Part shown: positions 81 to 49,555 of the stretch, piece by piece
How positions within the stretch are numbered: position 1 is the stretch's first letter
How the letters are laid out: every line of letters starts with the position of its first letter
Origin: Candidatus Doudnabacteria bacterium
GTDB lineage: Bacteria > Patescibacteriota > Doudnabacteria > UBA920
Assembly (NCBI GenBank): GCA_003151625.1
Contig: PLYC01000021.1
Location: forward strand, 80,235-144,234
Reading direction: 5' to 3'
DNA: 64,000 nucleotides
The notes under the pieces: model-generated
Told to the model about the DNA's origin: nothing
Seen by the model: the letters and a program-made list of their open reading frames with translations, nothing else
The model's database searches: none
Program-made: the position numbers and the translations under genes

Positions 81-364
81 GAAAATTAGTTATTAGTTAA
101 TATTGCTTAGTTTGTAGCGTGCCGATTTATCGGCTGTTTTCTTAATTAAATATTTTTAATTAGTTTAATTAACCTAATTGTTCTAATTATTCTAAATAAT
201 GTCTAATGCTTAAATGTCTAAATTCTGACATTGGATATTATGATTTGTTTAGGTCAATTAGACTAATTAGAGCAATTAGAATAATTTTTTAGCCTCTTTA
301 CAAACCTCTCTCTCTGTGGTATTTTTAGCTGTCCGATTCTTCGGCATGCAAAGGAGGTTCTATC

Positions 365-604
365 GTGGCAACGCACGACATCGATTGTGCTCTTAACTTC
401 GGGCAACTGACTGATTCTGAGCGGTGGGCTTACCTGGTCAGGCAAAATGCCTACTACATCTGGGAACGCCGGGTGAAAGCAGACACGCCTGGCACTCCAG
501 AAGAAGACTGGACAACAGCGGAAGCCGAGGTCGCCAAAGGCTGGAAAGTCTGGTTTACTGATGGATTTCTCGAATCGTTGCACCTACCAGCGGCCATCAC
601 ATAA
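365..604 (+). CDS. DUF2934-family small protein (GTG start), in a GC-rich patch
   Basis: 79-aa ORF preceded by AAAGGAGG 7 nt upstream of GTG. Sequence ..ERWAYLVRQNAYYIWERR..GTPEEDWTTAEAEV.. fits the DUF2934 pattern (AY.LWE.RG...G...DW..AE.EL). GC is noticeably higher than the flanks. Confidence 0.55.
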   Translation: MATHDIDCALNFGQLTDSERWAYLVRQNAYYIWERRVKADTPGTPEEDWTTAEAEVAKGWKVWFTDGFLESLHLPAAIT

Positions 605-609
605 ACTTC

Positions 610-757: not shown

Positions 758-883
758 TCCCCTCCTTCTTTAAGGAGGGGGTGTCCCGTCGGATGACGGG
801 ACGGGGTGGTGATACTTATCAACGCCGATTCATTCACCGCCTCCCCCGCCTGCGGCGGGTACTCCTCCTTAAAGAAGGAGGAG
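758..883. repeat. Composite GC-rich palindromic element between rpoB and rpoC; its ends are mutually inverted hairpins
   Basis: cccctccttctttaaggagggg (758-780), gtcccgtcggatgacgggac (783-802), ccgcctgcggcgg (846-858), ctcctccttaaagaaggaggag (862-883). The right half cctcccccgcctgcggcgggtactcctcctt... recurs almost identically in frame inside polA at 34745-34795. The element itself creates the spurious ORFs 739..930 and 924..1115. Confidence 0.7.
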
Positions 884-935
884 AGACTGCATTACGATTC
901 GTGTTCATTCGTCTGCAGTATTTGTGTTAATTAGT

Positions 936-5841: not shown

Positions 5842-5843
5842 GG

Positions 5844-6473: not shown

Positions 6474-6720
6474 ACGTTTTTTACTCCTTTTAAAATTGGG
6501 TTTTCTGTTTCGTCCTTGCGGACTCATCAGCCTGGGACTTCTATACCCAAGGACAGAAAAATACTAAAAATTAAGCGTGTAGTGCAGGCCATCGGCCTGC
6601 TTTAAATAAAATCTTTGGGGAAAGGTTTGTGCAAAACCGTTTCCCCGTAGATTGAATGCGTTATACGTCTGCCCGTACAGTCTCGCCGTTTGTTGCTAAA
6701 ACGGTGACAAAATTCTGCCG

Positions 6721-7806
6721 CTACTTTGGCAACTTTGGAAGGCGGGTTTTGGCTTCAATCTCCCGTTCCCAGGAAATCATGTTGTTGCCGAAAAACTTCT
6801 CGGCAACTTCCTGGCGGGAAAGCCACTCGGCTCCCGGCTCGTCCTGTTGGGTGGAGTAAAGGACGAACGGGTGGCCGCAGACCGCCCGGAAAGCCTTCTC
6901 CACTTCCGCCTCCCCGACACGCGAACGCGTCGGGTGCGAGCCAACGTGTAGGTGGCGTTCCCAGAGCCCGACAATCCCTGGGTGGCCGGTGATTTGGAAA
7001 ATCCGGCCACCGACCCGAAAGTCGACGGTCAAACCCTTATCCACCAGGCACAACAACAGCCAAGGGATGGCCCACTTATGCTTTTCCGTGGGCAACGTCC
7101 ACGGACATTTCGTGGTCGCCGGCTCCTGCTCGTCCACTTCCTCGGAGCCCCACACGAACGCGTGGGTGTTCCAAAACTCCTCGGAGCAGGCAGTGGCCCG
7201 CTTGTCCCACGGCTGGGGCTCGGGCACCCCGCCAAAGAACGCGCCGAGGAGCAGGAACGTGTCCCCCTGCCGTTTCAAGACCACCGTTACCTCGGAGCTG
7301 GGCTCCGGCTGGCGGTTTTTGACGAACCGGCTCAAGCCTCGGTCTTTAGCGCCCAGCTTGCGCCGGGCATAAACCACAACCTCACCCTTCCCCTCCAAGT
7401 AGGGCCGGAACTCCTCCGGCGCCTCTTCGGCCAGGGGTTGAGCCGGCATGACCTCGTCGGGACGATGCTTCACCCAGGCTTTGGCGAAATGCTCGGCCTG
7501 GGTTTTTTTGGAGGCCTGCTCGTCCCGCCAAGCTCCCGCCCGTCGCTGGGCGTCGCGGATTTCGCCGTCACGCCTGGTGGCGACGACGTTGCTGTTGCCA
7601 ATCGGCCGACCAAAATCGACCGACTGGATAATCATCCCGACCTCACCAGCCGGGAATCCATCTTCTGGATTGTGCGCATTGACCCGCGCCAAAGCGCGGG
7701 CGAGGAACCGCGCGGTACCTTTGTACCGCTGTGATCCCTCGTTAGCCAGGACCGTCTCGCCGCTTGCGAGCGTCCCGACCTTCTTCATTTGTAGTGAAGA
7801 CGCCAT
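6721..7806 (-). CDS. Hypothetical 361-aa protein (GC-rich island)
   Basis: Long ORF with AAAGGAGAGGG RBS about 9 nt upstream of the ATG. No family confidently recognised. Confidence 0.5.
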   Translation of the reverse strand: MASSLQMKKVGTLASGETVLANEGSQRYKGTARFLARALARVNAHNPEDGFPAGEVGMIIQSVDFGRPIGNSNVVATRRDGEIRDAQRRAGAWRDEQASKKTQAEHFAKAWVKHRPDEVMPAQPLAEEAPEEFRPYLEGKGEVVVYARRKLGAKDRGLSRFVKNRQPEPSSEVTVVLKRQGDTFLLLGAFFGGVPEPQPWDKRATACSEEFWNTHAFVWGSEEVDEQEPATTKCPWTLPTEKHKWAIPWLLLCLVDKGLTVDFRVGGRIFQITGHPGIVGLWERHLHVGSHPTRSRVGEAEVEKAFRAVCGHPFVLYSTQQDEPGAEWLSRQEVAEKFFGNNMISWEREIEAKTRLPKLPK

Positions 7807-7920
7807 TGTTTTGCCCTCTCCTTTTGGGCTATCTATTTACTAGAGATTCTTCGCTCCGCTCAGAATGACGCCGAAAAAAACCTAACAAACACATAGCTCA
7901 AAAGAAAAAAGCCTCCTCCC

Positions 7921-8025
7921 CCGCCAAGCCGTAGCCTGTGGTCCACAGCCGGGCGGGGGAAGAGAGGAACAAAAAGTTGTGCAGACTTTTGTTCCCCTCG
8001 ACTTAAGTGCAAATGGCGATTAAGG
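7921..8025. repeat. Intergenic repeat copy A, homologous to 12570-12690
   Basis: Shares gccgtagcct, aaaagttgtgca[ga]acttt and cccc..c.t.agtgcaa blocks in the same order with the MoxR/vWA spacer. Contains nested hairpins (ccccgcc...ggcgggg, ggaacaaaaag...cttttgttcc). Confidence 0.55.
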
Positions 8026-10013
8026 CTCGCCGTGGGCCTCACCGGAGGTGGTGAATTTTTGTGTTTGGTATTTTTTCTCCGGTGGCAGCTATAGTACGAA
8101 TCCGTTCCTTTAGGCCAACAAGAGCACAAAGGCTCCCGTCGAAACGTATTCGTCTGCTTTGTCTTTCCCGCGCGCTTGCCGGCGCGGCCTTAAATAGGAG
8201 GTTTTACCTAACTTCAGGCTTCCTCCCGGCGCGATTCTCTTTTTTAGCATCCTGTTTTGTGACTTGTGGAAAATTGGTGATTGGTTAGGATGTTTCAAGA
8301 ACCGCGATTCGGCGTCCGTCTTGCCTGGATGGGCCAAAGCTGGTGGCTCTGGCAAAGACTAATCCCTGTGGCGAGCAGGAAAATTGTTTCCCCTCCTTAA
8401 ACAACCTGCAAACCGGCGTTTACAGGCCGCCTAATTCAGGCCAGGCAAAAATAAACTGCGACCTATCTTGGTGTTTGGTGAAAGATAGTGTTTGGTAATT
8501 TTTAGGTCGCAGGCGGATGGATATTAAAACCCGATAATTGCTTCGGGCTTCACTTAAACATTTAGTTCAATCCACCCCGGCCCTAAGCCAAGGCTGTTTA
8601 AGTTTTTGCGGCAGCCGTTGCCGACTTTTCCATCCTGACACTCCTTGGGGGCTTTTCGGCTGTTTAGTGGGTATATTTAGTAGCCAAAAAACCTTAACCC
8701 CTTAGAGCCGCTGTTGTGTATCTCCCAAACCGCCAGCTGGCAGCTTGGGTCTCGTGTAGCGTTTTTGATGAGCGAAAGAAGGTAAAACGCCTTCCACCGG
8801 GCCCTTAGCCCATAAAGATAAGTGGCGAATGTCGCCGCCAAACCTTTCCTTTCGCTGTTTGTTCTTCCCTCATTCTGCCGGGATTGTTTGCCGACAAACC
8901 TCTTGGGGCGCGCCTGCCCATTACCTTTCGGCAATAAACACAGTACAAACTTAAAACTGCTTGACGTGGGGTATTGTATATTAGCGCTTCTTACTGTGAC
9001 AATTTTTTACCCAATAGGAGATTACTCTCCGCACAGAGAAGCGGCTGGATTTTCTGTTGTGCTCACCTGTAGTACTCTCCAGCAAAACCTAAGATGAGCA
9101 TTAACCAGTTTGTAATTTGTATTTTGGATTCCACACTCTGGTAAAAAGAACCCAAAACAGGCAGTTGTATTTAGAGCGTTGGTAAAAACAATTAGCCAAA
9201 ATCTTACCAACGCCGGTGCTGCTTGTTAGCGGTAAATCAGGTGCAGTTTATTGAAACCTGCCTTACCGACTTCTTGCTCTAATGACAAAATACCGTGACA
9301 TCCAGCTGGCAATGTCCTGTAAGTACCCTGCCACCTACAAATTTAATGAGCGCCTGAAGCAGAAGCTCATTAAACCAGCCGCGTTGCTTAAACCTTTTCC
9401 GCCCTCAGCGCGAAAGCCCTGCGGAAAAGAAAAATTTTTCTGAATAGCCAGGCTCAAATGAATTTTTAAACATTTGAGCCGCCAGCGCCACTGGCCCCTC
9501 TAGCCAAACAAAATCAGCCGATGCAGTTTCTGGCGCGTCCGGTTTACTGATTCACCGGACCTTGTGCGATGGGAACACAAGAATTTTGTAACCCACCTTG
9601 CGCCTTTTTAACGCTCTTTACCGATTCTTAACATGCTTGCCTTACGGCAAGGGAACATAGGTCTATCTATCCTAAAACCTATGCCTTTCATGCTCAGCCA
9701 CCCCCGATGCGCCTTCCCGGTCATCTCGAGAGAAAATGAACCGCTTGTCAGGGTTTAAACCCTCTACGGTGCCCTTATCATTTTTGTCTTTCTCCTCTTC
9801 GAAAAATCCAAACCAACCAAGAACCTCTTCCCGGCTTATTTGGGAGTAACGTGATGTTTTACGTTCCTCTCAAAATTTTATAGTTTATACCTTGCCGACT
9901 CGTCCGCCATAGCTTTAGCGAATTTGGATTTATCGGCCAAAACATAACTAGAAAACTTTGAGAGGAAGAGGAAGCCTAGGCGGTGTGCAATCGCGGGGCT
10001 TCCTCTTTTAGTG

Positions 10014-10454
10014 CTATTTGCCAAGGGCTGCTAAAAATCCCTTGGCCTTGTTGTCGTCCCGCCAGCTCCGCCACTCGGCGGGGACATGGGCGGCTTTTCG
10101 GCCGCGGTACTCAAGCGCCGCCCCTGGATAACCGGAACTGCGGCCGCTTGTGGTGTCCCACATGGACACCGTCAGGTCACCAATAGTGACCTTTTTTGCC
10201 GAGGACGGAACGTCGCTCGGCCAGCCGGGTTTCAGGCAGTTGTCATTCCAACCACCCGTCCCCCGGAAAAGTTGCCGGAGGAGGTTGCGCGGGATTTTCA
10301 CCCGCTCTTTTTTGCCGCGAATGCGGCGGGCGGCGGCCAAAGTGCGCAGGGTGTGCTTTCCCTGGAACTTGGCTATCACCAGCTCAATCGACGGCTTTTC
10401 AATCTCGGCCACAAAGGTTGTGACCGAGTCGATCGGTTTCTTCACGTCGGCCAT
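10014..10454 (-). CDS. Hypothetical 146-aa protein, last gene of the Alba-MoxR-vWA operon
   Basis: Start MADVKK at 10454 with AAGAGGAG RBS. Sits 85 nt downstream of the vWA gene on the same strand. GC-rich. Confidence 0.5.
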   Translation of the reverse strand: MADVKKPIDSVTTFVAEIEKPSIELVIAKFQGKHTLRTLAAARRIRGKKERVKIPRNLLRQLFRGTGGWNDNCLKPGWPSDVPSSAKKVTIGDLTVSMWDTTSGRSSGYPGAALEYRGRKAAHVPAEWRSWRDDNKAKGFLAALGK

Positions 10455-10538
10455 TTTCTCTCCTCTTATGGACCGAAACGGATGGTGTTTTATTATTTGG
10501 TAACCATCCCCCAAACCCTTGTCCGGATTCTCACCGAA

Positions 10539-20467: not shown

Positions 20468-21823
20468 TCAATTGTTTCCGCCAAAGGCGGAGCCGCCTTT
20501 GGCGGTAATTGTTAATTGTTGCAAGACTTCTTTGACTACCCGAACTTCATCCCAATCAACCCTTTTGTTTCCGGGCAAAATCAAAAACTGCTCACTGCCC
20601 TTGCCGGTAATTAAAACGAGATCGTTTTCCCTTGCAAAAGATAAAGCCCGAAAAATGGCCTGCTGGCGATCCAAAATTATTTCGTATCGCGACTTTCTTA
20701 ATTTAAAACTGTTAATGCCGTCTTCGATATTTTTGGCAATTTCCCTGGGATCGGAATCGTAAATATCGTCGTTGGTAACAATAATAATGTCCGCATACTG
20801 CGCGGAGGCGTGGCCAAACACAAATCTTTTGCCGACGTCGCGGTGCCCGCCGGTACTGCCAAAAACGTGGATTAGCCGGTTATGCGGCAATTGCGCCGCT
20901 GATTCCAAAGCGGCTTTAAATGAAGCCGGCTCACAGCCATAATCCACAATTATTTGAAGTCCCCGATTATTTGGGACATTTTCCATCCTGCCCCGGATCC
21001 CGCTGAATTTTTTTAGAGCTCCGGCCGCTTTTTCCAAATCTACTTCCAGCATATTCGCGCAGGCAACCGCCAAGGCGGCATTCTGCGCGTTAAAATTACC
21101 AGGCAAATTTAAGGTAAATGTCGTATTCTCAATTTTAAATTCGGTCTGGCTGCCTTGTTTGGTTAAATCGACAAAAAAAACTTTTTGCGCATCGCTGACT
21201 TTAAGCCGCCGAAAACTCACCCCGAATTTTTTGTCGGCTGGAAAACTCAAAAAATACCCTGCCATGGGATCGTCTAAATTTATGCCGATAACTTTTTGCG
21301 GAAAAAAAGGTTTTTTCCTGTTCTTGCCGACTGCCGCAAACAGCTTGCCTTTAGCCTGCTGATAATTACCAAAACTGCCGTGCGCGTCTATATGAGCGCG
21401 CGAGAGATTTGTAAACACGGCCATATCAAAATTAATCCCCCAGTGGCGGTTTTGAGCCAGCCCCTCGGAAGTGCATTCTATAATTGCCACCCTGCACTTA
21501 TTTATTGCCATGGCGTGCAGCTGCCTCTGTAATTTAATTTCATTGGGCATTGAAAGCCCGTGCTTGTTAATAAAACTTTTTTGTCCGTCAAAAAAATCCA
21601 CGGTTGTAATATACCCTGTCTTAATTCCGGAATTATTTAAAATATGCGCCAATATGGCGGTAGTGGTGGACTTTCCGGCCGTCCCCGTTATGCCAATAAC
21701 AATAAGTTTGCTACTGGGCCGGTCATAATAAATATTGGCATCCCAAGCCAGCATGCCGTGGTACCAGGGTCGAATAAATTTTAGCAGATCCTCGGGAATT
21801 AATTTTTTTAATAAATTCTTCAT
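20468..21823 (-). CDS. Mur ligase family (MurE/MurF-like UDP-N-acetylmuramoyl-peptide ligase)
   Basis: GITGTAGKSTT P-loop in the Mur ligase central domain. C-terminal ..TAKGGSAFGGNN is encoded by the palindromic element ccgccaaaggcggagccgcctttggcgg (20478-20507). Confidence 0.8.
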   Translation of the reverse strand: MKNLLKKLIPEDLLKFIRPWYHGMLAWDANIYYDRPSSKLIVIGITGTAGKSTTTAILAHILNNSGIKTGYITTVDFFDGQKSFINKHGLSMPNEIKLQRQLHAMAINKCRVAIIECTSEGLAQNRHWGINFDMAVFTNLSRAHIDAHGSFGNYQQAKGKLFAAVGKNRKKPFFPQKVIGINLDDPMAGYFLSFPADKKFGVSFRRLKVSDAQKVFFVDLTKQGSQTEFKIENTTFTLNLPGNFNAQNAALAVACANMLEVDLEKAAGALKKFSGIRGRMENVPNNRGLQIIVDYGCEPASFKAALESAAQLPHNRLIHVFGSTGGHRDVGKRFVFGHASAQYADIIIVTNDDIYDSDPREIAKNIEDGINSFKLRKSRYEIILDRQQAIFRALSFARENDLVLITGKGSEQFLILPGNKRVDWDEVRVVKEVLQQLTITAKGGSAFGGNN

Positions 21824-21931: not shown

Positions 21932-22852
21932 ATGCCCACAAAAATCAACAACAATCCCACAACCAAGCCGTCTCCGAATATAACAGGAACGTCTTTAAAA
22001 TACCACCCCACAAACTCTGCATGGGGTCTGGAGGCTTTTTTTGAAAGCTACCGGCTGGTTTTTCTCGGAGACTTTGCACTCAAGTTCACTGGAGCAAAAA
22101 AACTGCAAAAGTTTATAAATTTTTTTAAGCCCATTCCAAATAAAAATCCTGGCAGTATTGTGGCTAACGTAAATTTATACAACATGTTTAGCCAAAGCGC
22201 CAAGCACGCCTGGAGCCAGGCTTTTACCCTGGCGCAAATGCGCAGGAACCAAGTTGGGGTAGAAGATATCTTTTTGGCTCTGCTTGAGGAGCCTTCGGTT
22301 AAAAATTTGCTCACTCGCATTAAGGTTGACCCAAGGCAGGCAAAAATTTTTATTAATAACTACTTAAAACTTACCCCTCCTTTAACCGACGACACGGTTA
22401 AAAAAATCCCTTTTGAAGCCTTTGCTTTAGCGGTCCGTCTTCACAACCATAAAATCGGCAGCCTTATGCTGTTGGGCGGATTGCTTAAGGCCACGCCAAA
22501 CGACAATATTCTTCAGGCAATTTTTACCAATATCGGCCTAACCGCCGACAAGCTGGAATTGTTTTCTGTCTGGCTGCTCGATTTGGATTTCGAGTTTCCT
22601 GCGAGTTCCGCCAACAGTAAGTTACTGTTTTGCTTAAGGCAAGTCCAGGGGCTTGAAGAACACTTCGGCTATTTTTTTGAACTTCCGGCTATTGAAGTTG
22701 CGGTAAATTTAAGCCAAAACCAAACTCTAAAAGATTTACAACATCTTAAAGCTCTCCAACTCTTGGTTAAAGCCGGACTCTTGGGCAAAACCCGCGGCAC
22801 GAAAATTATTTCACAAAGCCTGGTGGAAAAGGCAGCTAAAAATAAAATATAA
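21932..22852 (+). CDS. Clp_N (Clp amino-terminal repeat) domain-containing protein
   Basis: ..AKHAWSQAFTLAQMRRNQVGVEDIFLALLEEPSVKNLLTRIKVDPRQA.. matches the ClpA/B N-domain repeat. Confidence 0.5.
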   Translation: MPTKINNNPTTKPSPNITGTSLKYHPTNSAWGLEAFFESYRLVFLGDFALKFTGAKKLQKFINFFKPIPNKNPGSIVANVNLYNMFSQSAKHAWSQAFTLAQMRRNQVGVEDIFLALLEEPSVKNLLTRIKVDPRQAKIFINNYLKLTPPLTDDTVKKIPFEAFALAVRLHNHKIGSLMLLGGLLKATPNDNILQAIFTNIGLTADKLELFSVWLLDLDFEFPASSANSKLLFCLRQVQGLEEHFGYFFELPAIEVAVNLSQNQTLKDLQHLKALQLLVKAGLLGKTRGTKIISQSLVEKAAKNKI

Positions 22853-22867
22853 AAAAATGCGCTTTGG

Positions 22868-23908
22868 CTAGTCAAAGCGCATTTTTTTAATGACCCTGTT
22901 TCCGAACCTCATCCCGGAATAAAATTTATACATAAAATTTTTTATTACCACATCGTACGCTCCTGCGTATTGCTGTTCTTTTCCGCCAAAGCCAAGCTTA
23001 AATCTCACAAACCCCGGCGTACTGCCCGAAGCGGTTTCTATTCCCCAAAAATCGTAAAAATTCAAACCCATAGACTTGGCGTCCCGCATGGCTGTCCAGT
23101 GCAAAAGATACGGAGCCATAACACTTTTATTTTCTTCCGAAGATCCGCCAAATAAAAATACGCGGGTTTGGCCAAAATCCACCATAATAGCCGAAGCCAA
23201 AATTTGGTTTTGGTAAACCGCCTTATAAATGCGGAGGTTTAAATCTCCGCGATTGCTTATGGCCAGAAAATCTATCAGCTTATTATAATAGCCACTCCCA
23301 TAGCCCTTAAACCCCTGTCGTTTTGCAGTCTCGGCAATTAACCCAACCGCTTCTTTGGCAAAAAGCCCATGCCCAATGGAGATATCAAATTCGTCTTTAA
23401 TTTCCACTCCGTGCTTTTGGGCAAGTTTGATGTTGTACCTTGTCTTATGGTGCATCTCGGACAAAAGCTGTTCTTCCGGTTTTGTGAGATCGATAAGTAA
23501 AGTCTTTCCCGGTTGAATATTTTTGGTTTTAATCAGGGGTGAGGGGTGAGGGGCGAGGGGTGAGTCTTTCGATTCAATACGAATAAATACGGCATTGATA
23601 AATTTTTCTTTTAAGCACCCCAGCAACCATTCATAATTCTTAATTCCAAATTCATAATTCTTGGCCCCTACGGGGCCGTATGGCGCGTACAAATAATACC
23701 TGCCAAACGGCAAAGGCATTTTTATAAGTTGAGTTGATGCAACTTGTTCCCCGCTATCATCTATAATTTTAAATCTACTAACTGTCCGCCCCAGGTGGGC
23801 TTGCCATTCCCCCCATTCCCAGGACTGCAAAAAAGAACCAGATGGGCTACTGGCCACAAACTGGTTATAGCTTTCCTTCTCCGTTAGGGCTAGCTCAGCT
23901 AAATTCAT
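22868..23908 (-). CDS. FemAB-family peptidoglycan interpeptide-bridge aminoacyltransferase
   Basis: N-terminal ..SFLQSWEWGEWQ.. is the FemAB signature. Contains an in-frame (GGGGTGA)x4-type insert at 23536-23564 coding SPLAPHPSPL. Confidence 0.75.
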   Translation of the reverse strand: MNLAELALTEKESYNQFVASSPSGSFLQSWEWGEWQAHLGRTVSRFKIIDDSGEQVASTQLIKMPLPFGRYYLYAPYGPVGAKNYEFGIKNYEWLLGCLKEKFINAVFIRIESKDSPLAPHPSPLIKTKNIQPGKTLLIDLTKPEEQLLSEMHHKTRYNIKLAQKHGVEIKDEFDISIGHGLFAKEAVGLIAETAKRQGFKGYGSGYYNKLIDFLAISNRGDLNLRIYKAVYQNQILASAIMVDFGQTRVFLFGGSSEENKSVMAPYLLHWTAMRDAKSMGLNFYDFWGIETASGSTPGFVRFKLGFGGKEQQYAGAYDVVIKNFMYKFYSGMRFGNRVIKKMRFD

Positions 23909-27435: not shown

Positions 27436-27480
27436 ATTAAATAGCACGATTTTAACGGCCGTTAAAATCGTGCTATTTTA
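27436..27480. terminator. Bidirectional hairpin terminator between uvrB (+) and the TrmB paralog (-)
   Basis: Perfect palindrome atagcacgattttaacggccgttaaaatcgtgctat flanked by T/A runs. Confidence 0.6.
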
Positions 27481-28219: not shown

Positions 28220-28479
28220 GGTTTTTATAAGCTCTCCCCAATTTATGGGGAGGGTGCCCCGAAGGGGCGAGAGAGGTTAATATAAGCCTATTTGCATTAT
28301 GTTCCCATTTCTCAATTCTGTCAACTTTTCTGACAACAATTTAATAACTAACGAATATGCCTATTTTATAGGCTTTTCTTAATATTTTGCTAGTCAGTAT
28401 TATTGACTATTTATATAATTTATGTTATAGTTACCGGTTAAAACAAATCCAGTTTTAACAGTTCACTAAGGAGGAACTT

Positions 28480-29067
28480 ATGAAACTATACGCGATTACC
28501 GTCCTTTTGCTGGTGACTGACGCTTTCGGCCAAACACAGGTGACTGCCGACACAATGGGCAAGGGCAACGACGCGATGTTTATCTCGTCCAATGCTCTCG
28601 TAGTCAAAGACTACGGCACTCTCACGGTCACCACGCTGCAATACTGGCGTGGGCTGACCAACCGGGTTGATGCCTTTGCGGGCATTACACTCACCACAGC
28701 ATTCGGCCAACAGCAGGCCAGCGTTACCGGCGGAGCAAATATCAACTTGCTCAAAACCAAGTTGGTGAGCGTGTCAGCGTTCAACACGCTGGCCACGCCG
28801 CTCCATCGCCGGCAAGACGCAAGCGCCGCAACGTGGTTTGCCGCCGGGGTTGTTAGCCACGATTTCCATGTGGCGACGCTCTATACCGGCTACAGCGCCA
28901 CGGTGCCGATCGGCCACACGGCGGACAAACTGTTCACCCCTCCCAGCGTGGTGCACAATGTCCCGGTTGGCATCGCCATTCCTAAAGGCAAATTACTCGT
29001 CTTTGTGGAATACAATTTCGGCAAGGCGGTGCAAACCGCCGGACTCGGTGTCGCGTACACCTTTTAG
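28480..29067 (+). CDS. Secreted beta-rich protein (signal peptide; possible beta-barrel), GC-rich foreign gene
   Basis: N-terminal MKLYAITVLLLVTDAFGQTQV signal. Alternating hydrophobic pattern. C-terminal ..GLGVAYTF. Strong GGAGG RBS. Followed by a gggaga..tctccc hairpin and T-run terminator at about 29068-29100. Confidence 0.5.
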   Translation: MKLYAITVLLLVTDAFGQTQVTADTMGKGNDAMFISSNALVVKDYGTLTVTTLQYWRGLTNRVDAFAGITLTTAFGQQQASVTGGANINLLKTKLVSVSAFNTLATPLHRRQDASAATWFAAGVVSHDFHVATLYTGYSATVPIGHTADKLFTPPSVVHNVPVGIAIPKGKLLVFVEYNFGKAVQTAGLGVAYTF

Positions 29068-29221
29068 GGGAGATAGCACCTCTCCCCTCCCTTTTTTAAA
29101 CTTTGATTTATAAATCGAAATTTAAAAATTGGAAAACCCCTACTATTGCTTTTTTATTAAGGTTTTGATAAACTATGTTCACGTGTCGCAACAATCTTTA
29201 ATCTAATATCTTAAATCTAAT

Positions 29222-29485: not shown

Positions 29486-29530
29486 CTTACAAAATCCCGC
29501 CACTCGGCGGGATTTTGTAATTTTTTCTGC

Positions 29531-31438
29531 CTAGTGACTAGCAGACCCACTCCCTGCATCGGAGAGAGGGAAGGCCGCAGAGGTTGCAAAGCTTTCTAAA
29601 AATTTTACAATACGCTGGTCCAATAAAATGTCAGCCGGGTAAATTGGACGCTTTAGAGTCAGACCGACTAGGGTGCGGCATCGGGAAAGCGCGACGTAAA
29701 GCTGGCCATGTGCAAAAGTGCCGGAGGCTAAATCTATATAAACTTTATCAAAAGTTTTGCCTTGGGCTTTGTGAATAGTTACCGCCCAGGCTAATTTAAA
29801 CGGATATTGAGTATAGGTACCCATGGTTTTACTCTTTACCGTTTCGGTATATTTATCAAGCGTAAAACTGTACATTTCCCAAGTATATGGCTCAACGTTT
29901 ACAGTCTCGCCGGTTTCGAGTTCAACAATGATGGTATCGGGAGCATTGTTTTCTTCAATAGAAAAATCAGTGGTAAGGGGTTCCGATTCAGAGGCAGCAA
30001 ATGGATCGGCAGTATCGTAACTCCAACCACCCCGTCCCGCTCCGCGGGCCACCCCTCCTTGAAAAGGAGGGGAAACCACACCTAGATTAAATTTTTCTAT
30101 ACCAATAATTTTCCCCATTGTGCCATTGACCCAGCGCTTGCGCTGGTCGTTATTGAGCATCATAATTTGCGCGCCAACTTTTATTTGTAAGTGTAAATCC
30201 GTGGGAAGTTCGCGATCTTGAAAACTGCCGCGCGCGCTACCGGTATAAACCTTTGGCTCCGACTCAATACGCTCCAAAAAATAATTATTTACCCAACTTG
30301 CCCGTTTGTTGGTCGGAGTTAAATAAATGGAAAATCTCTCAAAGGAAAATTCTTTTTCTTGATCTTGGGCGCGCTGGTTTAATATTTGCAAATGGTCGGT
30401 ACTCGCGGCATTATTGCGAACCGCGTTCAAGATTTCCAAAAATACCCTCTCCTTTTGTCTGTACATTGTCTGAAGTTCAATGAATTTAAATTGTGAATTT
30501 TTAAAACTTCGGGAATCAAAAAAATAAGGGCTCGTATATTCTTTAATTAAAGCGCTAACCGAACCAAAATCCCGCTCAACCGGCGGAAGTTGATACAAGT
30601 CGCCGATAAATATCATTTGCAAACCGCCAAACGGCATATCCGACGCTGGTCCGTTTAGACGCAAAAATTTATCAACGAAATCCAAGAGGTCGGCTCTGAC
30701 CATGGAAATTTCGTCTATGATTATGGTGTTTAATTTTAAAAGCAGTTTTCTTTTTGGGGAAAATGGGGCCAACTTTTTAACCTTTTGCATGGTTATGTCC
30801 GGACCAAAAGCGCAAAAAGAATGAATTGTTTGGCCTTCCACATTTAAGGCAGCAACGCCTGTCGGAGCCAGAACAACAATATTTTTCTCCGTGGTGTGGC
30901 GAAAATGCTGTAAGAGAGTAGATTTCCCTGTACCAGCCTCACCGGTTAAAAATAAATTCTGTTGGGTATTTTGCATTAAATCCAAGGCTCTTTGAGCCTC
31001 GGGATTGTCGGAAAAATTGAATTGTGGCGGCATCGTATCGCCCGGCTTAACAGAACCACCCCGCCTACCTTCTAAGGAGGCCAAGGCATCGGAAGATAGG
31101 TAGGAAGACACCCTTCCTTCGTGAAGAGGGGAAACGGCGCTCCCGCTGTCCTTTTTGCTTTTTCTTTCTTCATCACGCTTTTTTTGGGCATCGTAATCCC
31201 AACCCGCAATATCAGGAAAATATTTAGCCAAGCGGCCTCGGATGCCGTTTGGTTTACGGCCAAATTTTTCGGCTGTTGCCTCCAAAAATATTTCAAAGCT
31301 TTCCGATCCTTCCGTTTTATGGCTATCATAAACGTCCAAAAGCGCCGTATCCTCCTCTTTTGTCCAGCGCATGAAGGCCTTCGGATGCGTTTTACGCAAT
31401 TCTTCAATATTGCTTATTTTTTGGGCTTGTTTGTCCAT
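29531..31438 (-). CDS. Pif1/RecD-like ATP-dependent DNA helicase with N-terminal extension
   Basis: Motif I LTGEAGTGKSTLL. Motif II IIIDEISMV. ..LQMIFIGDLYQLPPV.. In-frame palindromic insert at 30027-30077 coding GVVSPPFQGGVARGAGRGG. Confidence 0.8.
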   Translation of the reverse strand: MDKQAQKISNIEELRKTHPKAFMRWTKEEDTALLDVYDSHKTEGSESFEIFLEATAEKFGRKPNGIRGRLAKYFPDIAGWDYDAQKKRDEERKSKKDSGSAVSPLHEGRVSSYLSSDALASLEGRRGGSVKPGDTMPPQFNFSDNPEAQRALDLMQNTQQNLFLTGEAGTGKSTLLQHFRHTTEKNIVVLAPTGVAALNVEGQTIHSFCAFGPDITMQKVKKLAPFSPKRKLLLKLNTIIIDEISMVRADLLDFVDKFLRLNGPASDMPFGGLQMIFIGDLYQLPPVERDFGSVSALIKEYTSPYFFDSRSFKNSQFKFIELQTMYRQKERVFLEILNAVRNNAASTDHLQILNQRAQDQEKEFSFERFSIYLTPTNKRASWVNNYFLERIESEPKVYTGSARGSFQDRELPTDLHLQIKVGAQIMMLNNDQRKRWVNGTMGKIIGIEKFNLGVVSPPFQGGVARGAGRGGWSYDTADPFAASESEPLTTDFSIEENNAPDTIIVELETGETVNVEPYTWEMYSFTLDKYTETVKSKTMGTYTQYPFKLAWAVTIHKAQGKTFDKVYIDLASGTFAHGQLYVALSRCRTLVGLTLKRPIYPADILLDQRIVKFLESFATSAAFPLSDAGSGSASH

Positions 31439-33171: not shown

Positions 33172-33837
33172 TTAAAATTCAAAAGTTTTAAGTTTTTCTT
33201 TAACTGGCGCAATGGCCTCCTCTGTAATATCCCCCGCCTTCATTTTACTGCTCCTAAAAATTTGTCTTTCAATTTCCCGTAAGCCGTTCTCAAACTCCGA
33301 CCGTGCCTCATCGTTGCCGCCCATCATATGGAATTTATTATTGTACCTGACCCGCAAGTCCGCCAGTCTTTCTTCCAAGCTAATAATTCCTCTTGGCCCG
33401 ACGCGCATATCGCTGTACGCGCAAATTTTTTTACCAAAATCTTCTGTCTCCGCATTAGTTCTACCATTATTGAAGCCAATACAGTCTATAAGCTCAATAA
33501 CTCTACCTGACGCGTCTGCTTCTTTTGCAATTATTAAAGCGGCCTGATGTTCGTCTGTACCATACTTTTGCCGGTATTCTTCCTTAACTTTTTCCCAAAA
33601 CTCCACATCAATATCTAAATTCATCACTGATTTGGTTTTGCGTAAATCAAACTTCAAAATATTCCCCATATCATGAAGCAAGCAAGCCAAAACTATATAC
33701 TCCCTCTCCCTCCGGGAGAGGGCTGGGGTGAGGGTTATATGCGCGCAGATTAAATCCGCCACCCCAGCCACCCTTAACTGGTGTTCGGCCAACTGCGGCA
33801 TTGTTTGATATTTTTTGTAAATTTCTAAAATGTTCAT
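33172..33837 (-). CDS. HD-domain phosphohydrolase
   Basis: ..LACLLHDMGN.. HD motif. In-frame GC insert at 33700-33748 coding TLTPALSRRERE. Confidence 0.6.
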   Translation of the reverse strand: MNILEIYKKYQTMPQLAEHQLRVAGVADLICAHITLTPALSRREREYIVLACLLHDMGNILKFDLRKTKSVMNLDIDVEFWEKVKEEYRQKYGTDEHQAALIIAKEADASGRVIELIDCIGFNNGRTNAETEDFGKKICAYSDMRVGPRGIISLEERLADLRVRYNNKFHMMGGNDEARSEFENGLREIERQIFRSSKMKAGDITEEAIAPVKEKLKTFEF

Positions 33838-34288: not shown

Positions 34289-34593
34289 CTACTTTCAAAC
34301 AAAATTATATACAAAATTATCATTAGAATATTAAACCAAATACAATCTTTATTATAAATTTCATTTGCCTCTTTTCTTAAAACAACGACTGAAGATTTAA
34401 TTAAAGGAGGGAAATGTGCAATGGCGGGAACTAAAATAATCAACCAACTCCTTTTAGGGAAATACCAACCGGCAAAGACTAATAAAAACATTGACACAGA
34501 ACATATAAACCAAATTGCGTGGTTGGCATTTTTAAACCAACCTCTTTTTATAAACCATCCAATCAAAATCCCAGCTTCTCCATCTCCCCCCAA
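34285..34593 (-). CDS. Small membrane protein (3 predicted TM)
   Basis: Hydrophobic 102-aa ORF overlapping adjacent gene ends. Confidence 0.4.
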   Translation of the reverse strand: MGGDGEAGILIGWFIKRGWFKNANHAIWFICSVSMFLLVFAGWYFPKRSWLIILVPAIAHFPPLIKSSVVVLRKEANEIYNKDCIWFNILMIILYIILFESR

Positions 34594-37385
34594 TTATCTC
34601 CCGCCTTAACTTCCACTTTAATCGGAACGGAAAGTTTAATGGCTTCTTCCATCATTGGAATTAACTTTTTTGCCCAATATTCCACTTTGTCCTCCCGAAC
34701 TTCAAATACAAGTTCGTCGTGGACTTGTAAGAGCATTCGAATTTCACCACCTCCCCCGCCTGTGGCGGGTACTCCTCCTTTGAAAGGAGGAGAGCTCCGC
34801 AGCATTTCCTTGTGGATATTGATCATGGCTACCTTAATTACATCAGCGGCCAAAGACTGGATGGGAAAATTCACGGCCGCGCGTTCTGCCGCGGCACGGA
34901 TAAAGAATTGGGAGGATTTTATTTCCGGGAATTTGCGCATCCGGCCAAGCTCGTTGCGGACAAAGGCTTCTTCGTTGACCTGCAATTTAATTTGCTCAAT
35001 ATAATTTTCCACGGCCGGATAAGCGGCAAAATATTTTGCTATAAATTCTTTGGCCTCCGCGCGGCTTACTTCGCCAATGCGCGATGACAGCCCAAACGAC
35101 GACAGCCCGTATAAAATACCAAAGTTGATTGTCTTGGCGTCGCGCCTCATATCGGCCGTAACTTTGTCGTCCGTCACCCCAAAAATACTGACCGCGGTGT
35201 TGGTGTGGATGTCTTCATTATTCTTAAACACCCGGAGCATATTTTCATCTTTGGCCAAATGCGCCACAATGCGCAATTCAATTTGGCTGTAGTCAATAGA
35301 TAAAAGCTTATAGCCCGCCTCCGCCACAAACGCCTGCCTAATTTTACTCCCCAAGCCTTGCCCCCGAATTGGAATATTCTGCAAGTTCGGGTCGGTGGAA
35401 CTAAGTCTACCCGTTGCCGCAATGGTTTGGTTATAGTTAGTATGAATCCGTCCGGTTTTTTTATTTACCAATTCCGGCAGCGCCAGCAAATAAGTTGATT
35501 GCAGCTTAGCCAATTCCCTATATTCCAAAATTTTATCAATTACCGGATGCTGGCCTTTCATTTTTTCCAGCTCGCCGGCGGCCGTAGACAGGCCGGTTTT
35601 GGTTTTACGATTTTGCACCGGCTCTAGTTTCATTTTTTCAAATAAAACCTCCTTCATCTGCTTTGGAGAATTCAAATTAAATTCCTCGCCGGTTAATTTA
35701 TAAATTTTACTTTCCAAATCCTTAATATCAATTTCTGCTTCCGCGGATAACTTGTTTAAAAATTTGCTGTCCAGTTTAATGCCATTTAACTCCATGCTTG
35801 CCAGCACTTCCACCAGCGGCATTTCAATGTCGTAAAAAACTTTTTCCAAACCTTCTTTTTTCAATTGGGGTTCAAAAAGTTCTTTAAGACGTAAAGTCAT
35901 GTCCACGTCTTCACAGCAGTACCAGCTCACTTTAGCCGGCTCCCCTTTATCCATTGTTATCTGATTTTTTCCTTTACCTATTAAATCCTCTATTGGCTGC
36001 ATTTGATAGCCGAGCTCGTTAAAAGCCAGGGCGTCTAAACCATGCTGGCGCGTGCCGGCATTTAGGAGATAGGAGGCTATCATGGTATCAAAATCAGTTG
36101 TAAGTTGTAAGTTGTAAGTTGTAAAAACCTCCAAGTCGTATTTTATGTTGTGGCCGATTTTTTTGATTTTAACATCGGATAATATTTTTTTTAATTCTTC
36201 AGATGCCAAAAATAAATCCGCGGCTACATAATACGCTACCCCTGGCTTTACACAAAGTCCCACCCCTACTAATTTTGCGTTTATTGTGTCGAGACTGGTA
36301 GTTTCCGTGTCGATGGTTATTTCTTTTGCCGCTGACAAACCCTTCAAAATCTTTTCCAATTTTTCTTCCGTGTCTATAAACTGGTAATCCTGTTTGCCAA
36401 TACTCGCAGCGCCCTCCGCCTTATTTGTAGGATTTTCTGACAATAATTCTTCATTAATCGCCCCTGCACCCTCACCCCTGACCCCTTTTTCCTTTGGCAG
36501 CTTCCCAATCAGCGTCCTAAACTCCAATTCCTGAAACAACTTCACTGTACCCTGCAAATGCGCGGCATCAAAATCATAAGCAACAATATTTATTTCCAAA
36601 GGAACTTTGCAGTCAATTTGTGAAAGCTGATAAGACATTATCGCTTCTTTTTCCTGTGACTTAAGCAATTCCAAAATCCTCGGCTTAATTTTACTGCCGG
36701 TTAAGCCTTCTTTAATCGCTGTATATAATCCATCAAACGATTTAAAATCTTGAATTAATTCCGAAGCGGTTTTCTCGCCTATTCCCTTTACCCCCGGAAT
36801 ATTATCGGAAGGGTCGCCGCGCAAAGCCTTATAGCTTACCATTTGGTCTGGGTTAAGCCCGTAGCGCGCTCGAACGGCTTTGGCGTCGTAAATTACCACA
36901 TCGGTAATACCTTTGCGCATGGTATAAACTTTTATAACGTGATTGACTAATTGCAAGGTGTCTAAGTCGCCTGTCACAATAATTACTTCTGCTTCCGGGT
37001 CTTTTTTATGCAAAGTTAAAGCCAGTGTACCAAGACAATCATCCGCCTCAAAACCCTGTTTTTCAAAAATAAGAATATTTAACGCGCGCACCACTTCTTT
37101 AACGCGCGGAATTTGGTCGTAAAGTTCCTGGTCGGCCTTAACGCGCGTGCCTTTATATTCCTTATACTGCACGTGCCTAAAAGTCGGGCCGGCCAAATCA
37201 AAGGTGCAGGCAATATGCGTGGGCTTAATGTCTGCAATGGCTTTAAGCAAAATCAAGCTAAAACCATAAACCGCGTTGGTCTGCTCCCCGCTTTTGGTGT
37301 TTAAAACCGGAATAGCGTGATACCCGCGGTGAATTAGCGCGTTGCCGTCTATTAACATATAGCGCGATTGTTTTGGAGGCGTCAT
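34563..37385 (-). CDS. polA: DNA polymerase I
   Basis: 5'-3' exonuclease N-terminus (..LIDGNALIHRGYHA..). Polymerase motifs A/B/C (..LSIDYSQIELRIVAHL.., ..RRDAKTINFGILYG.., ..QVHDELVFEV). Two in-frame GC inserts (34745-34795 and 36460-36487) and a 7-bp x4 tandem repeat at 36096-36123. Confidence 0.95.
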   Translation of the reverse strand: MTPPKQSRYMLIDGNALIHRGYHAIPVLNTKSGEQTNAVYGFSLILLKAIADIKPTHIACTFDLAGPTFRHVQYKEYKGTRVKADQELYDQIPRVKEVVRALNILIFEKQGFEADDCLGTLALTLHKKDPEAEVIIVTGDLDTLQLVNHVIKVYTMRKGITDVVIYDAKAVRARYGLNPDQMVSYKALRGDPSDNIPGVKGIGEKTASELIQDFKSFDGLYTAIKEGLTGSKIKPRILELLKSQEKEAIMSYQLSQIDCKVPLEINIVAYDFDAAHLQGTVKLFQELEFRTLIGKLPKEKGVRGEGAGAINEELLSENPTNKAEGAASIGKQDYQFIDTEEKLEKILKGLSAAKEITIDTETTSLDTINAKLVGVGLCVKPGVAYYVAADLFLASEELKKILSDVKIKKIGHNIKYDLEVFTTYNLQLTTDFDTMIASYLLNAGTRQHGLDALAFNELGYQMQPIEDLIGKGKNQITMDKGEPAKVSWYCCEDVDMTLRLKELFEPQLKKEGLEKVFYDIEMPLVEVLASMELNGIKLDSKFLNKLSAEAEIDIKDLESKIYKLTGEEFNLNSPKQMKEVLFEKMKLEPVQNRKTKTGLSTAAGELEKMKGQHPVIDKILEYRELAKLQSTYLLALPELVNKKTGRIHTNYNQTIAATGRLSSTDPNLQNIPIRGQGLGSKIRQAFVAEAGYKLLSIDYSQIELRIVAHLAKDENMLRVFKNNEDIHTNTAVSIFGVTDDKVTADMRRDAKTINFGILYGLSSFGLSSRIGEVSRAEAKEFIAKYFAAYPAVENYIEQIKLQVNEEAFVRNELGRMRKFPEIKSSQFFIRAAAERAAVNFPIQSLAADVIKVAMINIHKEMLRSSPPFKGGVPATGGGGGEIRMLLQVHDELVFEVREDKVEYWAKKLIPMMEEAIKLSVPIKVEVKAGDNWGEMEKLGF

Positions 37386-49484: not shown

Positions 49485-49555
49485 TTACGGATATACAGAT
49501 TACTGCAGTAATCTGTATATCCGTATGGTTTATCCGTAATCCGTAGATGAACTTA
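49485..49555. repeat. Left flank direct repeat of the GxxExxY cassette (contains the perfect palindrome acggatatacagattactgcagtaatctgtatatccgt)
   Basis: Shares ttacggatatac.gat.ctgca and atccgtaatccgtagatgRact with the right flank at 49935-50035. Confidence 0.6.

What the first reader, a model, noticed from the sequence alone, without database searches (positions are those of the whole stretch)
30027..30077. In-frame palindromic insert in the Pif1/RecD-like helicase, encoding an 'SPPFQGG' peptide like the polA insert
ccaccccgtcccgctccgcgggccacccctccttgaaaaggaggggaaacc contains the hairpins cccgctccgcggg and cccctccttgaaaaggagggg. The second hairpin is the same family as 758-780 cccctccttctttaaggagggg.

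In the helicase frame it reads GVVSPPFQGGVARGAGRGGW. The SPPF[KQ]GG peptide is shared with the polA insert, because both derive from the CTCCTCCTTT.AAAGGAGG hairpin read in the same phase.
Basis: seen in the sequence. Interest (0 to 1): 0.6.

Follow-up and report, generated by a model that had tools for sequence, protein, structure and literature searches.

The report
In-frame triplex-motif DNA repeat in helicase
The 51-base palindromic insert in this candidate-phyla-radiation bacterium's Pif1-like helicase gene is real. It is an in-frame copy of a dispersed DNA repeat laid out like the known bacterial 'intrastrand triplex' (BoxC/PIT) motifs, which have so far been described between genes.

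Summary
Window 30023-30073 is a 17-codon in-frame insert (SPPFQGGVARGAGRGGW) in a Pif1-like helicase of a Patescibacteria (CPR) genome. It has two perfect hairpins. It is alignable with three other copies in the window: polA, read in the same phase, and an inverted pair in the rpoB-rpoC spacer.

The element is more than a double palindrome. On the sense strand it reads pyrimidine arm CCCCTCCTT, loop, purine arm AAGGAGGGG, an 18-nt GC hairpin, then GGGGTGGTT. The last block is the mirror image of the purine arm with A replaced by T. That is the layout of a class II purine-motif intrastrand triplex, known as BoxC/PIT/TMECO (Holder et al. 2015).

The mirror rule holds for 33 of 43 other arm sequences. 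It also covaries three ways at the orthologous helicase site and in 87 elements from other phyla.

In the relatives examined, 45 of 52 such motifs lie in frame in genes. In E. coli the TMECO motif is reported as always intergenic. Near-identical linker hairpins at non-homologous sites, patchy presence among orthologs, and nesting all point to a dispersing repeat tolerated in disordered loops.

I rate it a new variant (hairpin-bridged, intragenic) of a known kind. Triplex formation and the mode of spread are inferred, not shown.

The parts
30064..30072 (-). Pyrimidine (Y) arm CCCCTCCTT on the sense strand. It encodes part of S-P-P-F.
   Evidence: Perfect 9-bp Watson-Crick stem with 30052-30060.
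30061..30063 (-). Loop 1 (TTC on the sense strand).
30052..30060 (-). Purine (R) arm AAGGAGGGG on the sense strand. It encodes Q-G-G.
30034..30051 (-). Linker (loop 2) TGGCCCGCGGAGCGGGAC. It contains hairpin 1, CCCGC-GGA-GCGGG, and encodes V-A-R-G-A-G.
   Evidence: The stem is kept in orthologs through different sequences: CCGCCC/GGGCGG, CCGCC/GGCGG, CCCCCGA/TCGGGGG.
30025..30033 (-). Mirror block GGGGTGGTT, the putative reverse-Hoogsteen third strand. It is the mirror image of AAGGAGGGG with A replaced by T, and it encodes R-G-G-W.
   Evidence: 0 mismatches. Covariation. Left unpaired in the Watson-Crick fold.
30023..30073 (-). The whole in-frame insert: 17 codons, helicase aa 456-472.
   Evidence: Lies in the pLDDT<50 segment 451-497, between strands 441-448 and 502-507 of the model.
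29531..31438 (-). Host gene, a Pif1-like SF1 helicase of 635 aa.
34745..34792 (-). Sister copy in polA (ORF 34563..37385): CTCCTCCTT-tca-AAGGAGGAG-tacccgccacaggcgggg-GAGGTGGTG. Peptide SSPPFKGGVPATGGGGG, just before the LQVHDE motif.
759..811 (+). Intergenic copy A in the rpoB-rpoC spacer: CCCCTCCTT-cttt-AAGGAGGGG-(hairpin)-GGGGTGGTG.
835..883 (-). Intergenic copy B, inverted relative to A. Its linker differs from the polA copy's linker by 1 nt.
33702..33734 (+). Short-linker relative, CCCTCTCCC-tcc-GGGAGAGGG-ctg-GGGTGAGGG. It fits the published TMECO/BoxC pattern and is read antisense in frame in an HD-domain ORF (LTPALSRRERE).
   Evidence: Up to 97% identical over 33 nt to unannotated sites in 4301 of 5426 E. 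coli genomes. Pattern from PMC4666352.

Best explanation
**What it is.** The insert is a copy of a dispersed small DNA repeat of the intrastrand-triplex-motif class: class II, purine motif, the class that includes E. coli BoxC/PIT/TMECO. On one strand it carries, in order:
- a homopyrimidine arm;
- a 3-nt loop;
- the complementary homopurine arm;
- a linker that is itself a GC hairpin;
- a G/T block that mirrors the purine arm.

When that strand is single-stranded, the arms can form a 9-bp hairpin. The G/T block can then fold back into its major groove through G*G:C and T*A:T (or A*A:T) reverse-Hoogsteen triplets. The small hairpin would serve as the turn.

**Why it sits in a gene.** In this Patescibacteria lineage such repeats have landed and persisted inside genes. 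Two things make that tolerable:
- Arms made only of C/T, only of A/G, or only of G/T cannot contain a stop codon.
- The copies that survive lie in disordered loops and linkers.

The Pro/Gly-rich peptide (SPPFQGG...GRGGW) is therefore a by-product of the DNA element.

**What is shown and what is inferred.**
- Shown: the architecture; the family relationship; the mirror rule and its covariation; the patchy distribution among orthologs; the sharing of subfamilies between unrelated sites.
- Inferred: that a triplex really forms in vivo, and how copies spread. The candidates are transposition of single or doublet units, or gene conversion between copies.
For: **Architecture.**
- 9/9 mirror match in the helicase copy; 8/9, 8/9 and 7/9 in the other three window copies.

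**The mirror rule is general.**
- Of 247 perfect pyrimidine/purine hairpins in about 0.9 Mb, 165 have a perfect mirror tail on one strand and 25 have a perfect direct copy.
- For arms that were not part of the search pattern and are not mirror-symmetric: 65 perfect mirror tails, 9 direct copies, and 1.3 expected in shuffled flanks. 33 of 43 distinct arms obey the rule.

**Three-way covariation.**
- At the orthologous helicase site the types are C/G/G (window, L005) and T/A/A (L002, L004, L006, L147).
- Across 87 distinct elements from other phyla, where the tail was not part of the scan pattern: 71 C/G/G, 11 T/A/A, 5 other.

**Constraint.** The arms are 85-100% identical between orthologs, while third codon positions of the flanking helicase sequence are only 47-76% identical.

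**Known class.** Holder et al. 2015 describe Y-R-RH class II motifs and BoxC/PIT/TMECO, with triplex formation of the single strand shown in vitro by CD and NMR.

**Dispersal.**
- The polA copy and a spacer copy in the window have linkers differing by 1 nt. The L005 helicase copy's linker is identical to the L008 polA-linker copy's. Orthologous-site copies have different linkers.
- Presence and absence are interleaved on a helicase tree.
- The polA site and the HD-gene site carry different motif variants or reading phases in different genomes, or none.
- L004 has a nested palindrome.

**Tolerance in genes.**
- 45 of 52 motifs in 390 kb of related CPR DNA lie inside long ORFs, in both orientations.
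- The helicase insert falls in a low-confidence loop of the model.
Against: - No experiment here shows a triplex. For TMECO itself, Holder et al. found no stable triplex in duplex DNA and none by in vivo DMS footprinting.
- An 18-nt structured loop 2 lies outside the loop range used in published motif searches (1-6 or 0-10 nt). Its compatibility with folding is untested.
- No transposase, target-site duplication or terminal inverted repeat was found, so mobility is indirect.
- The covariation counts include copies related by descent.
- The tree is an unbootstrapped NJ tree.
- Two of the four window copies have imperfect tails.
- The structure model is weak overall (mean pLDDT 61.9).
Confidence: 0.67

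Rival explanations
1. It is a plain palindromic repeat of the REP/REPIN, MITE or Rickettsia-RPE type. Its hairpins are all that matter, for example as the recognition structure of a single-strand transposase. The GGGGTGGTT block is just a conserved element end, and no triplex is involved.
For: - Two hairpins dominate the predicted fold.
- Inverted doublets with a central palindrome (AGCTCCGCAG..CTGCGGAGCT) resemble REPIN/BIME units (window copies A and B).
- Subfamilies are shared between unrelated sites.
- No stable triplex was seen in vivo for TMECO.
Against: - A fixed end sequence would not change in step with the arms. Yet the tail mirrors 33 of 43 different arm sequences and covaries three ways.
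- Direct-repeat and shuffled controls are far lower.
- Duplex-binding proteins and replication errors are not known to generate or read mirror repeats (general knowledge).
Confidence: 0.15
2. The insert was selected for what it encodes: a Pro/Gly/Arg-rich flexible loop (SPPFQGG...GRGGW, RGG-like) that adds nucleic-acid contacts to DNA enzymes such as Pif1 and Pol I.
For: - Both hosts in the window are DNA enzymes.
- The same reading phase is the most frequent among sense copies, 18 of 29.
- The peptide is retained in five close orthologs.
Against: - The same DNA element lies between genes and, in other phyla, mostly outside long ORFs.
- It is read in other phases and in antisense in other genes: HD hydrolase, TrmD-, Fmt-, TruB- and UvrC-like ORFs.
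- Closely related helicases and Pol I proteins lack it.
- Nucleotide-level conservation of the arms exceeds what this variable loop would need.
Confidence: 0.05
3. It acts at the RNA level. The mRNA hairpin pairs an anti-Shine-Dalgarno-like CCUCCUU with an SD-like AAGGAGG, and a second SD-like GGAGGUG follows in the type II copies. This could pause ribosomes, mask internal start signals or set mRNA stability.
For: - AAGGAGG and GGAGGTG are strong SD-like strings (sequence; SD consensus from general knowledge).
- Sense orientation is commoner than antisense in genes, 29 against 16.
Against: - Related families use arms unlike SD (GGGAGAGGG, AAGGGGAGG, AAAGGGGGA) and obey the same mirror rule.
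- Antisense and intergenic copies are common.
- The mirror block has no Watson-Crick partner in the fold.
- Purine-motif triplexes are reported not to form in RNA.
Confidence: 0.05
4. The motifs are not mobile. They arise and are reshaped locally in low-complexity loop-coding DNA, by slippage and template-switch 'palindrome correction'. Similar products arise independently because the chemistry favours them.
For: - Template switching is an established way to perfect quasi-palindromes (general knowledge).
- The same permissive sites carry very different variants in related genomes.
Against: - Template switching cannot copy a sequence in mirror orientation.
- Identical 18-nt linker hairpins at non-homologous sites in different genomes are not expected from local origin.
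- Cross-phylum identity of whole 45-50-nt elements is not expected from local origin either.
Confidence: 0.08

Closest known systems
BoxC / PIT elements / TMECO: class II purine-motif intrastrand triplex motifs (Hoyne et al. 2000 as cited in, and Holder et al. 2015, PMC4666352)
   Same: - Same order of blocks on one strand: pyrimidine arm, loop, purine arm, loop, mirror G/T(A) arm.
- 9-nt arms and a G/C-rich composition.
- Multi-copy and dispersed, sometimes as inverted pairs.
- Window 33702-33734 fits the TMECO pattern itself and matches E. coli sites at up to 97%.
   Different: - Loop 2 of the finding is an 18-nt GC hairpin.
- The arms are CCCCTCCTT/AAGGAGGGG, not CCCTCNCCC/GGGNGAGGG.
- The copies sit in frame inside genes, whereas TMECO in E. 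coli MG1655 is 'always located intergenically'.
Rickettsia palindromic elements (RPE; Ogata et al. 2000, from memory; mentioned in PMC1779305 and PMC10969869)
   Same: Palindromic repeats inserted in frame in protein-coding genes, including essential ones, and tolerated at surface sites of proteins.
   Different: RPEs are about 100-150 bp and restricted to Rickettsia. No homopurine/homopyrimidine arms or mirror third block have been reported for them. No sequence relation was tested here.
REP / REPIN / BIME elements moved by RAYT transposases (PMC3116915)
   Same: Short GC-rich hairpin repeats. Inverted doublets look like the unit. Discrete subfamilies occur within a genome.
   Different: REPs are extragenic and have no mirror block. 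A RAYT gene was not looked for systematically and none was seen.
Double-hairpin elements and GC clusters of fungal and algal organelle genomes (one search lists papers; details from memory)
   Same: Very small two-hairpin elements that occur between genes, in rRNA and in frame in coding regions, with nesting.
   Different: They are organellar, with different sequences. No triplex-type mirror block has been described for them.

Membership tests
Class II purine-motif intrastrand triplex motif (Holder et al. 2015) | Block order 5'-pyrimidine arm, purine arm, reverse-Hoogsteen arm-3' on one strand | tested here: met
   Sense strand reads CCCCTCCTT ... AAGGAGGGG ... GGGGTGGTT. Definition.
Class II purine-motif intrastrand triplex motif (Holder et al. 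2015) | Homopurine arm fully Watson-Crick paired with the homopyrimidine arm (stem 6-15 nt) | tested here: met
   9-bp perfect stem. It is the minimum-free-energy fold as single-stranded DNA.
Class II purine-motif intrastrand triplex motif (Holder et al. 2015) | Third arm antiparallel to the purine arm, giving G*G:C and A*A:T or T*A:T triplets with at most one mismatch | tested here: met
   9/9 in the helicase copy; 8/9, 8/9 and 7/9 in the other window copies. The rule is supported by 33 of 43 other arms and by three-way covariation.
Class II purine-motif intrastrand triplex motif (Holder et al. 2015) | Short loops (1-6 nt in ITxF; 0-10 nt in Hoyne et al.) | tested here: not met
   Loop 1 is 3 nt. 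Loop 2 is 18 nt and forms its own hairpin. This is a search criterion of those studies and not a physical requirement. 121 of 192 motifs in other phyla have such long linkers.
Class II purine-motif intrastrand triplex motif (Holder et al. 2015) | The single strand actually folds into a triplex (CD, NMR, polymerase stop) | not testable with these tools
   Shown only for TMECO in vitro.
TMECO / BoxC proper | Consensus CCCTCNCCC N3-6 GGGNGAGGG N3 GGGNGAGGG | tested here: not met
   The finding has different arms. The neighbouring element at window 33702-33734 does meet it.
TMECO / BoxC proper | Intergenic location | tested here: not met
   The finding is in frame in a helicase ORF. 45 of 52 motifs in related CPR DNA are in long ORFs. 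The E. coli statement is.
Rickettsia palindromic elements | 100-150-bp palindromic repeat of Rickettsia, inserted in frame | tested here: not met
   51 nt, in Patescibacteria. Only the in-frame behaviour is shared.
REP/REPIN-RAYT | Associated RAYT (Y1 transposase) gene in the genome | not tested
   Only 13 window ORFs were scanned against Pfam. None was a transposase. The rest of the 246.8-kb contig and the genome were not available.
MITE | Terminal inverted repeats plus target-site duplication | tested here: inconclusive
   Flanks of the copies were inspected by eye. No consistent duplication was seen. The recurring 5' CTGCGGAGCT is half of the central palindrome of doublets.

The most novel reading that the evidence does not exclude
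The triplex-type repeats are kept by selection as DNA-level signals inside essential genes of Patescibacteria and many other phyla. They could act on the transiently single-stranded template during replication or transcription, or be read by a structure-specific enzyme. The three-way covariation seen inside coding sequence would then be the first comparative evidence that purine-motif intrastrand triplexes form and matter in vivo. The hairpin-bridged form would be a distinct, cross-phylum structural module that earlier searches, limited to short loops, would not have detected.
Probability: 0.2. Interest if true: 0.85.

Novelty: new variant of a known kind. Interest (0 to 1): 0.62.

Why it matters
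BoxC/PIT triplex motifs have been known since the 1990s, and no function or mode of spread has been established for them.

- **A natural test bed.** Copies inside conserved genes of many related uncultured bacteria can be compared with saturated synonymous sites next to them. Here the third-strand block is kept and changes in step with the hairpin arms. That is hard to explain unless the three blocks interact.
- **A gap in earlier searches.** A common form with a hairpin in the second loop falls outside the loop limits those searches used.
- **Practical consequences.** These stop-free repeats add Pro/Gly-rich segments to CPR proteins. They confuse alignments and domain boundaries, and they put strong Shine-Dalgarno-like strings inside genes.

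Tried and rejected
- **Rfam.** No family matched at gathering threshold on the window. At E<=1 on seven element-bearing loci, the only matches were chance hits to miRNA families, far below their gathering scores. No tRNAs were found in the window.
- **Scan contaminants.** A few genome-scan hits were tRNA-Thr anticodon arms and were set aside.
- **Literature.** Searches for Patescibacteria or CPR together with palindromic in-frame repeats found nothing relevant.
- **Tail as a direct repeat of the purine arm.** Rejected: 25 perfect direct copies against 165 mirror copies, and 9 against 65 in the independent set.
- **Tail pairing by Watson-Crick with the first 4-5 nt of the pyrimidine arm.** Considered. 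It would explain only GGGG/GGAG and not the TGGTT part. The fold leaves the tail unpaired.
- **Target-site duplications.** None was consistent.
- **Intein, intron or assembly artefact.** Rejected. The element is 51 nt, in frame, and present in independent ENA and JGI assemblies and in cultured isolates such as Hymenobacter translucens and Ancylomarina salipaludis.
- **Technical failures.** One script failed on file layout, one did nothing, and one literature query was malformed.
Full report
**1. The observation**

The quoted sequence is at window 30027-30077. On the + strand, CCCGC-TCC-GCGGG lies at 30036-30048 and CCCCTCCTT-GAA-AAGGAGGGG at 30052-30072.

The region lies in ORF 29531..31438 on the minus strand. 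This ORF encodes a 635-aa protein with PIF1, AAA_30, UvrD_C_2 and Pif1_2B domains. In that frame it reads GVVSPPFQGGVARGAGRGGWS. The insert itself is 17 codons, aa 456-472, window 30023-30073.

The arm words are strongly over-represented:
- CCCCTCCTT: 6 occurrences against 0.65 expected.
- CTCCTCCTT: 5 occurrences against 0.33 expected.
- No shuffle reached either count.

Four copies of one roughly 50-nt element align end to end:
- A: 759-811 (+).
- B: 835-883 (-).
- C: the finding.
- D: 34745-34792 (-), in the polA ORF 34563..37385.

A and B lie in the roughly 850-nt space between the rpoB stop (936) and the rpoC start near position 80. C and D are read in the same orientation and phase, which gives SPPFQGG and SPPFKGG. 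As single-stranded DNA all four fold into the two hairpins, with z-scores of -3.4 to -5.4.

**2. The organism and the orthologs**

The closest helicase homologues are unnamed metagenome proteins. Among more distant ones (49-55% identical), the few that carry a source name are labelled Candidatus Doudnabacteria or Patescibacteria group. The window comes from a 246.8-kb ENA contig.

In an alignment of 29 orthologs:
- The four closest distinct orthologs (71-74% identical) carry VSPPFQGGV...GRGGGWS at the same place.
- Many others have unrelated sequence or nothing there.

I fetched the DNA of six of them. Every ortholog with the peptide has both palindromes at the DNA level.

The hairpin-1 stem differs between orthologs but always pairs: CCCGC/GCGGG, CCGCCC/GGGCGG, CCGCC/GGCGG, CCCCCGA/TCGGGGG. 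In L004 a 30-nt perfect palindrome is nested in the loop of hairpin 2.

**3. The missed third block**

Downstream of hairpin 1 on the sense strand lies GGGGTGGTT (window, L005) or GAGGTGGTT (L002, L004, L006, L147). This is the mirror image of the purine arm, AAGGAGGGG or AAGGAGGAG, with A written as T. It changes together with the C/T and G/A change in the two hairpin arms.

I tested whether this is general, using all perfect pyrimidine-arm/purine-arm hairpins in the window plus 126 fetched loci (about 0.9 Mb):
- 165 of 494 strand-instances, about two thirds of the 247 hairpins, have a perfect mirror copy within 45 nt 3' of the purine arm.
- 25 have a perfect direct copy.

I then restricted the test to arms that were not part of any search pattern and are not mirror-symmetric. 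That set has 43 distinct arms and 170 strand-instances:
- 65 perfect mirror tails.
- 9 direct copies.
- 1.3 expected in shuffled flanks.
- 33 of the 43 arms obey the rule, for example AAGGGGAGG with GGTGGGGTA and AGGAGAGGGG with GGGGAGAGGT.

Opposite an A of the purine arm, the third block has T 361 times and A 120 times.

The linker between purine arm and mirror block is of two kinds. It is either 2-5 nt or a whole GC hairpin, as in the finding.

**4. Comparison with what is known**

This layout is the class II purine-motif intrastrand triplex motif of Holder et al. 2015 (PMC4666352). That class includes E. coli BoxC, also called PIT elements (Hoyne et al. 2000, as cited there) and TMECO: CCCTCNCCC N3-6 GGGNGAGGG N3 GGGNGAGGG.

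What those authors report:
- The isolated strand forms a stable triplex in vitro.
- There is no stable triplex in duplex DNA and none by in vivo DMS footprint.
- There is no promoter or terminator activity.
- There is no link to mobile elements.
- In E. coli MG1655 the location is strictly intergenic.
- The motif is associated with local genomic variability.
- They note that purine-motif triplexes are reported not to form in RNA.

The finding therefore shares the three-block logic. It fails the loop criterion, because loop 2 is 18 nt and structured. It also differs in the TMECO consensus and in location.

A neighbouring element at window 33702-33734 does fit the TMECO pattern. It is read in frame, antisense, in an HD-domain ORF. 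It matches unannotated sites in 4301 of 5426 E. coli genomes at up to 97% over 33 nt.

**5. Distribution**

I scanned one genome per species for CCTCCTT N3-4 AAGGAGGRG N2-4 CC, a pattern that does not include the tail. Apart from a few tRNA-Thr anticodon arms, the hits show the same composite element, often with a linker hairpin and GGGGTGGTT or GAGGTGGTT. They come from:
- Bacteroidota;
- Acidobacteriota;
- Beta- and Gammaproteobacteria;
- Verrucomicrobiota;
- Rhodothermales;
- Kuenenbacteria, Doudnabacteria and other Patescibacteria;
- cultured isolates, among them Hymenobacter translucens and Ancylomarina salipaludis.

Among 87 distinct elements the three covarying positions are C/G/G 71 times, T/A/A 11 times and other combinations 5 times.

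In these loci, 121 of 192 motifs have a linker of 10 nt or more. Of those, 86 have at least a 4-bp hairpin in the linker. Most motifs are outside long ORFs.

**6. In-frame copies are the rule in this lineage**

In 390 kb from the window and its CPR relatives, 45 of 52 motifs lie inside long ORFs. Of these, 29 are sense and 16 antisense.

- **polA site.** The site just before LQVHDE carries a bridged copy in the window. It carries three different short-linker variants in L002, L005 and L008, and another bridged variant in L133. L007, L131 and L136 have none.
- **HD-gene site.** It carries motifs read in three different phases in different genomes.
- **Other Patescibacteria.** They carry in-frame copies in TrmD-, Fmt-, TruB- and UvrC-like ORFs (protein identities judged by eye, not scanned).

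Blocks made only of C/T, only of A/G or only of G/T cannot contain a stop codon. This follows directly from the sequence and explains the tolerance in any phase.

In an AlphaFold2 model of modest quality (mean pLDDT 61.9), the insert lies in a pLDDT<50 segment, 451-497, between two strands of the 2B domain.

**7. Constraint and spread**

Between orthologs, the three arms are 85-100% identical. The only differences are the coordinated triple change and one tail end. Third codon positions in the flanking 100 codons are only 47-76% identical.

Linker hairpins tell a different story:
- The polA copy and spacer copy B in the window differ by 1 nt.
- The L005 helicase copy has the same linker as the L008 polA-linker copy, and differs by 1 nt from the L002 copy.
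- The L006 helicase copy differs by 1 nt from an L133 polA copy.
- Copies at the orthologous helicase site have different linkers.

On a rough NJ tree of helicase cores, element-bearing and element-free orthologs are interleaved. The two type I copies are not sisters. A distant ortholog, L147, has a type II copy plus an antisense copy in the same loop.

Divergent inverted pairs joined by AGCTCCGCAG..CTGCGGAGCT occur in several genomes. Window copies A and D carry half of that central palindrome at their 5' side.

Together these features indicate dispersing subfamilies, with repeated gain, loss or replacement at a few permissive sites. The mechanism, transposition or gene conversion, is not shown. 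No transposase, terminal repeat or target duplication was identified.

**8. Verdict**

The best explanation is an in-frame copy of a triplex-motif repeat of the BoxC/PIT class, in a hairpin-bridged form. The peptide is a passenger.

Triplex formation in vivo, any function, and the mode of spread remain inferred.

I rate it a new variant of a known kind. The class and its chemistry are published. I did not find the following in the library searched:
- the bridged architecture;
- its cross-phylum spread;
- its intragenic life in Patescibacteria;
- the comparative evidence for constraint on the third strand.

Noticed in passing
window 584-935: The rpoB-rpoC spacer is unusually long, about 850 nt from the rpoB stop at 936 to the rpoC start near 80. 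Besides the inverted element pair A/B, it contains a GC-rich stretch at about 620-700 and a doubtful 106-aa ORF (263..583) with no Pfam match.
   Followed up: partly
window 4500-14500: An island of 57-59% GC in a 40-47% GC background. It has many overlapping ORFs on both strands, an AAA_5 (MoxR/McrB-like) ATPase ORF (12731..13915) and a weak VWA match (10539..12416). It is possibly foreign DNA or a defence-type locus.
   Followed up: partly
window 20478-20505; L004 helicase loop: A second palindrome family, CCGCCAAAGGCGGAGCCGCCTTTGGCGG, encodes AKGGSAFGG at the C-terminus of a Mur ligase ORF. A close relative, TCCGCCATAGGCGGATCCGCCTATGGCGGA, is nested inside the loop of hairpin 2 of the L004 helicase element.
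   Followed up: partly
window 31030-31140: The N-terminal linker of the same helicase (SPLHEGRVS...EGRRGGS) looks like a decayed, expanded copy of the same element, ending in CGGGGTGGTT. Orthologs L130 and L007 have better copies there, and L133 has one read in another phase.
   Followed up: partly
window 15155-15192: A degenerate triplex-type motif, CCCTCCCCT-cccg-AGGGGAGGG-ttg-GGCAGAGGT, lies in frame near the N-terminus of a TrmB-family ORF (peptide PSPREGRE).
   Followed up: partly
L002, L005, L008, L133 polA, just upstream of the triplex motif: A further in-frame palindromic segment encodes KLISESANQQIS (CTGATAAGCGAATCAGCCAATCAGCAAATCAG). It is absent from the window's polA and from L007.
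   Followed up: no
window 12531-12597, 28234-28275, 29066-29088: More pyrimidine/purine hairpins occur outside clear genes: TCTCCCCC-tct-GGGGGAGA, CTCCCCAATTTATGGGGAG followed by a second hairpin, and AGGGGAGATAGCACCTCTCCCCT. Part of the linker sequence at 12550-12590 (ccgtagccttggcgaagg) recurs inside the L133 polA element.
   Followed up: no
window 22850-22889, 27439-27478, 49486-49525, 29487-29520: Long perfect AT-rich or mixed hairpins (15-18-bp stems) at gene ends. They are probably bidirectional terminators and are unrelated to the triplex-type family.
   Followed up: no
L110 (Patescibacteria) Fmt-like and TruB-like ORFs: The same sense-plus-antisense element pair, encoding ILPFRRGG...VIGNDNHP..., sits in frame in two different genes of one contig.
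   Followed up: partly
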